From: a virus
Taxonomy: Monodnaviria > Loebvirae > Hofneiviricota > Faserviricetes > Tubulavirales > Inoviridae
Direction: 5' to 3' (one strand)
Length of the DNA stretch: 10,399 bases
Virus record (IMG/VR): IMGVR_UViG_2609459774_000002
Below are positions 1,759 to 1,947 of the stretch, piece after piece. The notes under the pieces are model-generated. The model saw nothing but the letters and a program-made list of their open reading frames with translations, was not told the origin of the DNA and did no database searches. Positions within the stretch are counted from its first letter, which is position 1. Each line of letters begins with the position of its first letter. The position numbers and the translations under genes were made by a program.

Positions 1759-1947
1759 ATGCCAACAAAGCACATAAACGATGTTCAATGGAGAAAAATA
1801 GAGAAAGAAACCGTAAAAGCCGTAACAATGTTAGCCTTACCAGTAAAAGATACTAAAGTTCTAGAATGGATAATAACAAAGGGACTAGAAAGCATAACGG
1901 AAGATGACTACAAAAAATTTGGTGCAGAACTAAGGGCAAAAAAATAG
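1759..1947 (+). CDS. Small 62-aa protein, divergent from Rep B; putative immunity/regulatory protein by position only
   Basis: Strong RBS AAGGAG 9 nt upstream of ATG 1759; followed by hairpin terminators; same position as the divergent regulator of element A and as rstR in CTXphi-type genomes; no motif recognised. Confidence 0.45.
   Translation: MPTKHINDVQWRKIEKETVKAVTMLALPVKDTKVLEWIITKGLESITEDDYKKFGAELRAKK

What the first reader, a model, noticed from the sequence alone, without database searches (positions are those of the whole stretch)
1759..1947. Two different divergent small ORFs occupy the same immunity position in the two elements
Element A has a 70-aa RHH-like protein (9686-9898) and element B a 62-aa unrelated protein (1759-1947). 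Both are divergent from their Rep genes and both are followed by the shared repeat. This parallels rstR heteroimmunity in CTXphi arrays and suggests the shared repeat is a recombination hotspot for module exchange.
Basis: inference. Interest (0 to 1): 0.5.

Follow-up and report, generated by a model that had tools for sequence, protein, structure and literature searches.

The report
Two RstR-type filamentous-phage immunity repressors
The two small genes are real and are E. coli relatives of two different repressor alleles (RstR-calc and "environmental" RstR) of the cholera-toxin phage, so the window holds two neighbouring filamentous prophages at the chromosome's dif site that most likely carry different immunities; this is a good new example of a known system, not a new kind of system.

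Summary
Observation confirmed. The ORFs 1759-1947 (62 aa) and 9686-9898 (70 aa) each lie divergent from a Rep operon, and each is followed by a terminator and then the shared repeat. The two proteins have no detectable sequence similarity to each other. They are not unrelated in kind, though. Both AlphaFold models match ribbon-helix-helix (RHH) proteins best. The 62-aa protein is 47% identical to CTXphi RstR-calc. The 70-aa protein is 68-70% identical to the "environmental" RstR of CTXphi, pre-CTX and RS1-env.

Each control region carries its own repeated half-sites over the divergent promoters: TTAGA/TCTAA in B, and CGCATGCG with TATTTAC/GTAAATA in A. These motifs follow the regulator from Vibrio to E. 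coli whichever Rep family sits next to it.

Related E. coli genomes carry at least seven regulator cassettes at this position. One pair of phages has 99.8% identical Reps, 53% identical regulators and different operators, which is a true rstR-like swap. In the window itself the two elements differ far more than that. Their Reps belong to different families, and element B is a 3.7-kb unit with no coat or assembly genes.

The shared repeat is a conserved module: a 57-aa membrane ORF plus a CTX-type attP hairpin. It is the right-hand edge of every swap, but nothing shows it to be a recombination hotspot. Verdict: new member of a known kind.

The parts
1759..1947 (+). 62-aa regulator of element B, a homologue of CTXphi RstR-calc with a predicted ribbon-helix-helix fold
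1642..1758 (.). Control region of element B, holding divergent promoters and TTAGA/TCTAA half-sites at 1647, 1653, 1687 and 1718
   Evidence: It holds 4 of the window's 11 such pentamers, and no other 117-nt window holds more than 2. The rightward promoter is TCAACA-18-TATGAT at 1701-1730. The leftward promoter TTGACT(1704-1699)-17-TATAAA(1681-1676) was read by eye. The architecture aligns with Salmonella, Providencia, a metagenome contig and V. cholerae ig-2-calc.
592..1641 (-). Rep of element B (gene II type), the presumed target operon, followed by the G5P ssDNA-binding gene at 306-581
   Evidence: Pfam Phage_CRI 1.4e-63, G2P_X_C 8.9e-25 and Phage_DNA_bind 2e-17.
1994..2045 (.). Terminator-like hairpins after the 62-aa ORF
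   Evidence: The scan reports two hairpins on the minus strand, at 2041-2012 and 2011-1994. On the plus strand the second stem is followed by TTTTCT, read from the sequence.
9686..9898 (+). 70-aa regulator of element A, a homologue of the 'environmental' RstR of CTXphi, pre-CTX and RS1 and of the VAI1/2 RstR-like protein, with a predicted ribbon-helix-helix fold
9549..9685 (.). Control region of element A, with TATTTAC at 9564, CGCATGCGCGCAT at 9571-9583, GTAAATACGCATGCG at 9607-9621 and ATGCG at 9624, bracketing the leftward promoter
   Evidence: It holds 6 of the window's 27 CGCAT/ATGCG pentamers, and no other window holds more than 2. The leftward promoter is TTTACA-18-TATGAT at 9611-9582. 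The 15-mer is unique in the window. The block TGTAAATACGCATGC is invariant in Gilliamella, Arsenophonus, Photorhabdus, V. cholerae CTX-env and V. anguillarum VAI2.
8155..9548 (-). Replication operon of element A: a 65-aa ORF (9351-9548) and a Rep_trans Rep (8155-9381; RefSeq annotations of close relatives give 398 aa, which corresponds to a start at 9351)
   Evidence: Pfam Rep_trans 1.5e-21. The PHROG matches are phrog_453 and phrog_3104. The annotation comes from E24377A.
9985..10006 (+). Terminator-like hairpin after the 70-aa ORF
   Evidence: 7-bp stem with 6 GC pairs, followed by GTTTTCTCCC.
2196..2497 (+). Shared repeat, copy 1: a GC-rich conserved block and a 57-aa membrane ORF (2299-2472)
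   Evidence: The ORF occurs only in E. coli. The repeat is present in 22 of 5426 complete genomes, at 66 places.
10072..10399 (+). Shared repeat, copy 2 (57-aa ORF at 10201-10374), running into the start of the attP hairpin at the window end
2476..2571 (.). attP-type palindrome 1: two inverted dif-like sites that fold as a forked hairpin
   Evidence: The dif-like arms AGTGCGCACAA and AGTGCGCATAA are. The ssDNA fold gives -38.7 and -40.2 kcal/mol, z -9.1 and -9.4. In E24377A the matching junctions carry hybrid dif sites.
2622..2717 (.). Second palindrome with the same architecture (73% identical to the first), at the start of element A
   Evidence: The fold gives z -6.1 and -8.1. It is absent from the single prophage of E24377A.

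Best explanation
The window is part of a tandem array of two different filamentous (inovirus-type) elements integrated at the E. coli dif site. Each element carries its own immunity cassette, made of a small ribbon-helix-helix repressor gene and, next to it, a control region with that repressor's repeated operator half-sites laid over the divergent promoters.

Proposed mechanism (inferred): the repressor binds as a dimer, or as a higher oligomer, through its N-terminal beta-strand. In B the strand is TKHIN and the half-sites are TTAGA/TCTAA. In A the strand is DTTVRIN and the sites are the CGCATGCG palindromes flanked by TATTTAC/GTAAATA. Binding shuts off the leftward Rep operon and probably also regulates the repressor's own promoter. 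This keeps the element quiescent and blocks replication of an incoming phage that carries the same cassette.

The recognition strands and operators of A and B are entirely different, so neither should repress the other (heteroimmunity). That would explain how different elements pile up side by side at dif.

The cassettes are homologous to two natural rstR alleles of CTXphi: B to rstR-calc and A to 'environmental' rstR. They behave as portable units that are found next to unrelated Rep families.

Shown here: the ORFs, their homology, the conserved synteny, the motif enrichment, the co-inheritance of motif and regulator, and the cassette swaps in related genomes. Inferred: DNA binding, repression and immunity specificity.
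For: 1. Homology to named CTXphi repressors. B62 is 47% identical to RstR-calc, E 3e-17. A70 is 68-70% identical to proteins annotated RstR in CTXphi IB1617, pre-CTX 17449 and VAI1/2. Li et al. 2024 (PMC11509585) report allele-specific repression of cognate ig-2 promoters for eight rstR alleles including calc. The title of Davis et al. 1999, cited there, says CTX-calc 'encodes a novel repressor'.

3. Synteny. Both families always lie divergent from the Rep operon of an inovirus. This holds in Salmonella, Providencia, Gilliamella, Arsenophonus, Photorhabdus, Vibrio and metagenome contigs.

4. Operator-like repeats. They are strongly enriched in each control region, are absent from the other element's region, and overlap the predicted promoters.

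5. Motifs follow the regulator family and not the Rep family. Each family is found beside both G2P-type and Rep_trans-type Reps, and diverged members of the 70-aa family also sit beside 'replication endonuclease' Reps.

6. Strand and operator vary together within the 70-aa family. GDTTVRIN goes with CGCATGCG, SIGISN with TGTGCAA/TGCAA repeats, and AIAITE with GTTAACAC repeats.

7. Arrays with mixed cassettes occur in one chromosome, namely JNE25-005 and JNE112863.
Against: No experiment on either E. coli protein was found, and none on the 'environmental' RstR allele, which is called a repressor by position in the sources read.

The calc data in Table 2 of Li et al. are weak: 4.5e4 with RstR-calc against 6.5e4 with vector on ig-2-calc.

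The conserved motifs overlap the promoter hexamers, so part of their conservation could reflect promoter function.

The leftward promoter of B was read by eye and fails the scan's -10 rule.
Confidence: 0.78

Rival explanations
1. The two proteins are RHH copy-number or transcription regulators of the replicative form, like CopG of rolling-circle plasmids. On this reading they tune Rep expression but confer no superinfection immunity and do not determine which phages can coexist.
For: The RHH fold matches. The replicon uses rolling-circle replication (Rep_trans or G2P). A 9.6-kb circular episomal copy of a related phage exists. YpfPhi gives only partial protection against superinfection (PMC4266046).
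Against: Both proteins are homologous to rstR alleles, whose divergence is the accepted basis of CTXphi immunity (PMC11509585 and PMC7326730). Regulator-only swaps on a 99.8% identical Rep and mixed arrays are what selection for distinct immunities would produce. The two roles are not mutually exclusive.
Confidence: 0.12
2. The small proteins regulate the genes downstream of them (the 57-aa membrane ORF, or accessory genes such as DUF2726 or the TolA-C protein in relatives). Alternatively they act as antitoxin-like or anti-repressor factors. In either case they are not repressors of Rep.
Against: A terminator-like hairpin separates each ORF from the 57-aa ORF. No toxin gene is adjacent in the window. 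The repeated motifs lie between the regulator and Rep, not before the 57-aa ORF. The 57-aa ORF is identical behind every cassette type, while the regulators differ.
Confidence: 0.06
3. One or both ORFs are non-functional chance ORFs or decayed remnants in defective prophages.
For: The ORFs are very short, RefSeq calls them hypothetical proteins, and neither has a Pfam match.
Against: They are conserved across genera at 55-90% protein identity with invariant N-terminal residues and form 138 clusters at 50% identity. The position is fixed in intact inoviruses. Each has a ribosome-binding site and a predicted promoter.
Confidence: 0.02

Closest known systems
CTXphi rstR / ig-2 heteroimmunity system of Vibrio cholerae (alleles ET, class, calc, 232, 4, 4**, 5, 6, ZJ, ZHJ, JS, 'environmental')
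   Same: The repressor gene is divergent from the rep operon, with an allele-specific control region between them. Different alleles coexist in tandem arrays at dif, and a satellite (RS1) shares the array. The two window proteins are sequence homologues of two of these alleles, calc and environmental, and the control-region motifs are also conserved.
   Different: The host is E. coli. The phages have other structural genes, including their own secretin, and other Rep families: G2P and 'replication endonuclease' as well as Rep_trans. In the window the two elements differ in the whole replication module and not only in rstR/ig-2. The right-hand conserved flank is a 57-aa ORF plus attP, where CTXphi has ig-1.
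YpfPhi (Yersinia pestis) and CUS-1 (E. coli K1) filamentous prophages
   Same: They are enterobacterial inoviruses integrated at dif through inverted dif-like sequences, and they form tandem repeats. They carry a gene at the rstR position (YPO2273) that has been proposed, but not shown, to be the repressor. Their att-adjacent ORFs vary (PMC4266046).
   Different: No nucleotide match to the window was found in the phage collection. I did not test whether YPO2273 belongs to either family. YpfPhi arrays are described as copies of one phage, whereas here different elements sit side by side.
UPPhi phages of Enterobacterales (Shapiro and Putonti 2020, PMC7307601)
   Same: They are dif-integrated tandem inoviruses of E. 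coli, Salmonella and Citrobacter. Modular exchange of genes II and V with YpfPhi and non-identical copies within arrays have been described.
   Different: That paper does not discuss a repressor; the word does not occur in it. I did not test whether the Salmonella and Citrobacter loci carrying the 62-aa family are UPPhi.
Ribbon-helix-helix repressors such as Omega (pSM19035), CopG (pMV158), Arc/Mnt (P22) and the TraM N-domain
   Same: The predicted fold matches. The proteins are small (45-70 aa), carry conserved basic or polar N-terminal strand residues, and have operators made of several short repeated sub-sites over promoters.
   Different: No sequence-profile match to Pfam RHH families was found. 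Dimerisation and strand insertion into the major groove were not tested.
RS1 satellite of CTXphi
   Same: Element B is a short unit (3674 bp in strain JNE112863) with its own Rep, ssDNA-binding protein and repressor but no virion or assembly genes. It is repeated in tandem next to a complete phage and shares that phage's attP module.
   Different: Its Rep is of another family than that of its neighbour, so it is not a subset of the helper genome. No RstC-like antirepressor was recognised. It encodes a 201-aa multi-HTH protein and an 87-aa protein of unknown role.

Membership tests
RstR-calc type repressor (CTX-calc phi) | Sequence homology to RstR-calc over most of its length | tested here: met
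   47% identity over 53 aa, E 3e-17, against the 59-aa ORF retrieved with the published rstR-calc primer.
RstR-calc type repressor (CTX-calc phi) | Gene divergent from the rep operon of an inovirus, with the family's control-region architecture | tested here: met
   117-nt intergenic region. The blocks TTCTAAG..TCTAAGAAATTATTT, TATAAGTTCTTAGA.TCTAA, AGTCAACA and TTATGAT align with ig-2-calc.
RstR-calc type repressor (CTX-calc phi) | Allele-specific repression of the cognate rep promoter and superinfection immunity | not testable with these tools
   This needs reporter or infection assays. The literature reports it for the Vibrio allele only.
'Environmental' RstR type (CTXphi IB1617, pre-CTX 17449, RS1-env, VAI1/2) | Sequence homology to the annotated RstR | tested here: met
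   68-70% identity over 56 aa; tblastn E 1e-17 and BLASTP E 2e-27. The strand KRGDTTVRINE is identical.
'Environmental' RstR type (CTXphi IB1617, pre-CTX 17449, RS1-env, VAI1/2) | Same position and same control-region motifs | tested here: met
   The block TGTAAATACGCATGC is invariant, and an ATGCGCGCAT-type palindrome lies upstream, in E. coli, V. cholerae and V. anguillarum.
'Environmental' RstR type (CTXphi IB1617, pre-CTX 17449, RS1-env, VAI1/2) | Demonstrated repressor activity | not testable with these tools
   I found no experiment on this allele. It was not among the eight alleles tested by Li et al. 2024.
Ribbon-helix-helix (Arc/MetJ/CopG) superfamily | Strand-helix-helix fold | tested here: inconclusive
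Ribbon-helix-helix (Arc/MetJ/CopG) superfamily | Match to a curated RHH sequence family | tested here: not met
   No Pfam family at E <= 0.1 for either protein, nor at E <= 0.05 for their Vibrio homologues. No PDB sequence match either.
Ribbon-helix-helix (Arc/MetJ/CopG) superfamily | Obligate dimer with a two-stranded antiparallel sheet that reads DNA | not testable with these tools
   Only monomer prediction was available.
rstR-style heteroimmunity (allele swap on a common backbone) | Near-identical rep gene flanking a divergent regulator and operator region | tested here: not met
   For A versus B in the window, the Reps belong to different Pfam families. The feature is met in relatives: the Reps of ESC818 and JNE25-005 are 99.8% identical while the regulators are 53% identical. 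DNA homology ends at the Rep start codon and resumes in the shared repeat.
rstR-style heteroimmunity (allele swap on a common backbone) | Different alleles co-resident in one tandem array at dif | tested here: met
   The window holds B followed by A. JNE25-005 holds three cassette types in one array, and JNE112863 holds B, HTHa and HTHb.
CTX-type IMEX (Xer-dependent integration of a folded ssDNA attP) | Two inverted dif-like sites that fold into a forked hairpin | tested here: met
   z -9, with an asymmetric internal loop at the central region.
CTX-type IMEX (Xer-dependent integration of a folded ssDNA attP) | Integration at dif with hybrid junctions, and no integrase of its own | tested here: met
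   In E24377A the left junction is AGTGCGCATAA plus the chromosomal TGTATA-TTATGTTAAAT, and the right junction is the chromosomal GGTGCGCATAA plus the phage centre. No integrase is annotated in any unit.
RS1-like filamentous satellite (element B) | Own replication and repressor genes, no virion or assembly genes, arrayed with a complete phage | tested here: met
   The 3674-bp unit holds a 201-aa HTH protein, an 87-aa protein, G5P, G2P, the 62-aa and 57-aa ORFs and attP, and is repeated at least three times.
RS1-like filamentous satellite (element B) | Packaged and transmitted by a helper phage | not testable with these tools
   The only hint is a 200-nt segment shared with element A (2779-2979, 87%).

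The most novel reading that the evidence does not exclude
The operator-plus-RHH-repressor cassettes are self-contained, portable immunity units that move between inoviruses with three unrelated Rep families and between Vibrionaceae and Enterobacterales. Element A shares its recognition strand (GDTTVRINE) and operator core (GTAAATACGCATGCG) with CTX-env and RS1-env of V. cholerae, so the two would be cross-immune across genera. Element B would be a previously undescribed E. coli filamentous satellite that depends on A-type helpers through the shared attP module and the shared 200-nt segment.
Probability: 0.4. Interest if true: 0.55.

Novelty: new member of a known kind. Interest (0 to 1): 0.4.

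Why it matters
The result gives two "hypothetical proteins" of E. coli prophages a specific and testable function: allele-specific repressors of the RstR-calc and RstR-env types. It assigns a likely fold (ribbon-helix-helix) to two short rstR alleles of the cholera-toxin phage. It also predicts their operators.

The heteroimmunity logic that shapes CTXphi arrays appears to operate in E. coli too. There, up to ten elements with several immunity types stack at dif. The repressor-operator cassette is exchanged independently of the replication protein.

This is useful for annotating inoviruses. It also helps in understanding how filamentous prophages and their satellites accumulate at the replication terminus. 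Finally, it lets one predict which phages can superinfect which lysogens.

Tried and rejected
1. Direct and profile comparison of the two proteins found no similarity. The idea that they are diverged alleles of one family is not supported by sequence. Only the fold class is shared.

2. Pfam and PDB sequence searches gave nothing meaningful.

3. A megablast of the whole window against the phage collection found no match.

4. A search for the 57-aa ORF in species-representative genomes found nothing. The protein database holds only E. coli copies.

5. A fixed-pattern search for TCTAAG-N3-TCTAA was uninformative inside the window, because B has the half-sites inverted and not direct. The cross-genus alignment was the useful test.

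6. Long members of the 62-aa family (175-320 aa) were scanned for fused domains. Only sub-threshold P-loop hints appeared.

7. No LexA-like box (CTG-N10-CAG) is present in either control region, so the LexA co-control known for CTXphi cannot be transferred.

8. Davis et al. 1999 and Mukhopadhyay et al. 2001 are not held in the library. I therefore could not determine which numbered allele (4 or 4**?) corresponds to the 'environmental' RstR.

9. I considered whether the conserved motifs could be the Rep nick site or origin. I rejected this because they travel with the regulator and not with the Rep family.

Full report
WHAT THE WINDOW IS. The 10.4-kb window holds parts of two filamentous-phage-type elements lying head to tail.

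Element B runs from position 1 to about 2571 and is cut at its left end. It has a G5P-type ssDNA-binding gene (306-581, -) and a gene II-type Rep (592-1641, -; Pfam Phage_CRI 1.4e-63 and G2P_X_C). It also has the 62-aa ORF (1759-1947, +), a 57-aa membrane ORF (2299-2472, +) and a 96-nt palindrome (2476-2571).

Element A runs from about 2600 to 10399. On the minus strand it has a secretin, a Zot-type assembly ATPase, pVI- and pIII-like genes and a coat gene. These are followed by a 113-aa protein, a Rep_trans Rep (8155-9381) and a 65-aa ORF. On the plus strand come the 70-aa ORF (9686-9898) and a second copy of the 57-aa ORF with the start of the palindrome.

Near-identical DNA occurs in 84 of 5,426 complete E. 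coli genomes. In strain E24377A a single copy of element A sits between the ydeP-ydeT fimbrial genes and hipBA, which is the dif region. Its left junction is AGTGCGCATAA-TGTATA-TTATGTTAAAT, which is dif with one changed base. Its right junction is the palindrome, whose outer arm now begins GGTGCGCATAA like chromosomal dif. Both palindromes in the window consist of two inverted dif-like sites, and as single strands they fold into forked hairpins (z -6 to -9). That is the arrangement described for CTXphi, YpfPhi and CUS-1 (PMC4266046).

CHECK OF THE OBSERVATION. Both ORFs are at the stated coordinates and both have ribosome-binding sites. Each is divergent from its Rep operon, with intergenic regions of 117 and 137 nt. 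Each is followed, after about 170-250 nt of element-specific sequence that includes a terminator-like hairpin, by the shared repeat. The repeat core 2290-2497 matches 10192-10399 at 99%, and weaker similarity starts at about 2196 and 10072.

The two proteins share no detectable sequence similarity. BLASTP finds no alignment, and hhalign of two family alignments gives 2.6% probability.

Both are real genes. Each matches a PHROG (7e-23 and 1.5e-27). Each has 38 cluster representatives in other Enterobacterales and related bacteria, with invariant N-terminal residues. A full HMM search finds 138 clusters at 50% identity for the 62-aa family.

WHAT THE PROTEINS ARE. AlphaFold2 models built on the family alignments (pLDDT 81.7 and 82.0) show an extended N-terminal segment followed by two helices, with a short third helix in the 62-aa protein.

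The decisive finding came from the phage collection. The 70-aa protein is 68-70% identical to proteins annotated RstR. These include the [quoted passage not shown] of V. cholerae IB1617, the RstR of pre-CTX 17449, and the "RstR-like" protein of V. anguillarum VAI1/2. All of them sit in the rstR position, divergent from rstA. The same allele is reported in the RS1-env-DRC satellite of recent Congolese O1 isolates (PMC11395875).

For the 62-aa protein the lead came from the primer table of Li et al. 2024 (PMC11509585). There rstR-calc is a short allele (180 bp), and its forward primer translates to MATKHIKD. An exact search with that primer in IMG/VR returned a 59-aa ORF, MATKHIKDSTWRKVEEKTVKAV.... 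It is 47% identical to the window protein, E 3e-17.

So both ORFs are homologues of natural rstR alleles of the cholera-toxin phage. According to the literature read, rstR divergence is the basis of CTXphi heteroimmunity. Li et al. report allele-specific repression of the cognate ig-2 promoter for eight alleles, including calc, although the calc effect in their Table 2 is small. I found no experiment on the environmental allele.

CONTROL REGIONS. The B intergenic region holds four of the window's eleven TTAGA/TCTAA pentamers, and no other 117-nt stretch has more than two. The A region holds six of twenty-seven CGCAT/ATGCG pentamers, and none elsewhere has more than two. Neither region carries the other's motif above background.

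In A, the predicted leftward promoter TTTACA-18-TATGAT (9611-9582) is bracketed by GTAAATACGCATGCG next to its -35 and CGCATGCGCGCAT just past its -10.

In B, the rightward promoter TCAACA-18-TATGAT (1701-1730) has a TTAGA in its spacer. A leftward TTGACT-17-TATAAA, which I read by eye, has TCTAAG in its spacer. The palindrome TTAGAtTCTAA sits just before the Rep start.

These motifs travel with the regulator and not with the Rep. The 62-aa family lies beside G2P-type Reps in E. coli and Salmonella, and beside Rep_trans in Providencia, metagenome contigs and V. cholerae. All these control regions align, with blocks such as TTCTAAG..TCTAAGAAATTATTT, TATAAGTTCTTAGA.TCTAA and AGTCAACA.

The 70-aa family lies beside Rep_trans in E. 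coli, Photorhabdus and Vibrio, and beside G2P in Gilliamella and Arsenophonus. The block TGTAAATACGCATGC is invariant in all of them. This pattern argues against the motifs being Rep origins and for their being the regulators' own sites.

Within the 70-aa family, the predicted recognition strand and the repeats change together. GDTTVRIN goes with CGCATGCG, SIGISN with TGTGCAA/TGCAA repeats, and AIAITE with GTTAACAC repeats.

MODULE VARIATION IN RELATED GENOMES. The 208-nt repeat core occurs at 66 places in 22 complete E. coli genomes. Upstream of it I found at least seven cassettes:
- the 70-aa type;
- two diverged members of that family (60 and 62 aa, 42-48% identical to the 70-aa protein), sitting next to a 660-aa "replication endonuclease" and followed by a DUF2726 protein or a TolA-C-domain protein;
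- the 62-aa type of element B;
- three Xre-type HTH regulators of 110, 108 and 162 aa, next to "phage/plasmid replication" proteins.

Counts in complete genomes are as follows.

| Cassette | Genomes | Places |
|---|---|---|
| A (70 aa) | 31 | 64 |
| B (62 aa) | 4 | 10 |
| HTHa (110 aa) | 1 | 4 |
| HTHb (108 aa) | 5 | 13 |
| RE60 | 8 | 14 |
| RE62 | 7 | 14 |

Strain JNE25-005 carries three types side by side in one array, and JNE112863 has ten copies of the repeat.

Two kinds of exchange are visible. The first replaces the whole replication module. The window and JNE112863 are 97.6% identical from 1 to 7787, then unrelated until the shared repeat. The second replaces the regulator only. The phages of ESC818 and JNE25-005 are 96% identical through the structural genes and Rep (Rep proteins 99.8% identical). 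Homology stops exactly at the Rep start codon and resumes at 99% in the shared repeat, while the regulators between are 53% identical and have different repeats. The second case is the precise counterpart of rstR/ig-2 replacement in CTXphi. The A/B pair in the window is not such a case, because the two elements share only the attP-proximal module.

THE SHARED REPEAT. Aligning the sequence downstream of six cassettes shows an invariant core: a GC-rich block, the 57-aa ORF and the attP hairpin. The left edge differs between cassette types. The repeat is therefore the common right-hand boundary of every swap.

It is also a functional module that every element needs for integration. In tandem arrays its copies lie in direct repeat 4-9 kb apart, which makes them ordinary substrates for homologous recombination. 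Hybrid genomes produced from tandem prophages, as described for CTXphi, are another route; Davis and Waldor 2000 are cited for this in PMC7307601. Nothing here shows recombination above what flanking homology would give, so "hotspot" remains a hypothesis.

ELEMENT B. In JNE112863 element B is a 3,674-bp unit repeated at least three times. It holds a 201-aa protein with HTH_38/Sigma70_r4_2 domains, an 87-aa protein, G5P, G2P, the 62-aa and 57-aa ORFs and the hairpin. It has no coat, pIII, pVI, Zot or secretin gene. It shares with element A a 200-nt segment after the hairpin (window 2779-2979, 87%). It therefore looks like a satellite in the manner of RS1, though with a Rep unrelated to its neighbour's. 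Packaging by a helper is inferred, not shown.

COMPARISON WITH WHAT IS KNOWN, AND NOVELTY. Several things are already described: heteroimmunity through rstR alleles, tandem arrays at dif, satellites, enterobacterial dif-integrating inoviruses (CUS-1, YpfPhi, UPPhi) and modular exchange of replication genes.

What I did not find described in the papers searched:
- that these two E. coli "hypothetical proteins" are RstR-calc and RstR-env homologues;
- that these short rstR alleles are probably RHH proteins;
- that repressor and operators form a cassette conserved from Vibrio to Enterobacterales beside unrelated Reps;
- that E. coli arrays hold at least seven cassette types.

The UPPhi paper does not mention a repressor at all. 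The library is incomplete, so prior description elsewhere cannot be excluded. I class the finding as a new member of a known kind, of moderate interest (0.4).

LIMITS. All functional statements (DNA binding, repression, immunity specificity, satellite mobilisation) are inferences from homology, fold prediction, motif statistics and comparative genomics. The source strain of the window is not among the complete genomes searched; the best hits cover 77% of the window.

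Noticed in passing
window 1-2571; L001 1-3960: Element B is a 3,674-bp tandemly repeated unit with Rep, ssDNA-binding protein, repressor, a 201-aa multi-HTH protein and an 87-aa protein, but no virion or assembly genes. It is a candidate filamentous satellite of E. coli, comparable to RS1.
   Followed up: partly
window 2779-2979; L001 645-844: A 200-nt non-coding segment just past the attP hairpin is shared at 87% between the gene-poor element B and the complete phage A. It is a candidate common packaging signal or complementary-strand origin.
   Followed up: no
window 2622-2717: A second dif-like forked palindrome (73% identical to the first) lies 50 nt after the first, at the start of element A. 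It is present in JNE112863 but absent from the single prophage of E24377A. Its role is unexplained; it could be a second attP or the remnant of another element.
   Followed up: partly
window 2299-2472 and 10201-10374: A 57-aa single-pass membrane ORF, 98% identical between the two copies, follows every cassette type and is found only in E. coli. Its function is unknown. It may be an exclusion or conversion factor.
   Followed up: partly
window 2196-2290 and 10072-10190: An invariant GC-rich, pyrimidine-rich block (TGTCGTTGTCGGCGTCCTCCTCCCGTCGTCCTTCTCCGCCTCCA...GCTGCGGTGCGGTACGGCTG) precedes the 57-aa ORF in all six cassette types aligned. It is unusual in an AT-rich region and was not analysed further.
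   Followed up: no
L006 24162-24527: Some relatives encode, right after the regulator, a 121-aa protein with a hydrophobic N-terminus and a TolA C-terminal domain (Pfam 2.4e-13). TolA-C is the co-receptor bound by filamentous-phage pIII, so this could be a decoy that excludes superinfecting phages.
   Followed up: no
L027 1471-1674 (Escherichia phage If1, NC_001954 about 5120-5320): The annotated 'major intergenic region' of the classical phage If1 contains an intact, unannotated 67-aa ORF of the 70-aa/RstR-env family (46% identity), next to IS200/IS605-type tnpA and tnpB genes.
   Followed up: partly
L005 (NZ_AP045060.1, 9,613 bp circular): A record deposited as plasmid pJNE25-005_3 is a circular copy of the HTH-type phage carrying an ISEc31 insertion. 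This suggests an episomal replicative form in that strain.
   Followed up: partly
L003 (ESC818) 5300-15100: In strain ESC818 the prophage array is flanked by a LysR regulator and aldo/keto reductase genes instead of ydeT/hipBA. This implies a different integration context or a rearranged terminus region.
   Followed up: no
window 4233-5396: The longest ORF for the Zot-like gene starts at a TTG and is 387 aa. RefSeq annotations of close relatives give 1,257 nt (418 aa), and a 60-aa ORF (5308-5490) overlaps upstream. A frameshift or start difference in this copy is possible.
   Followed up: no
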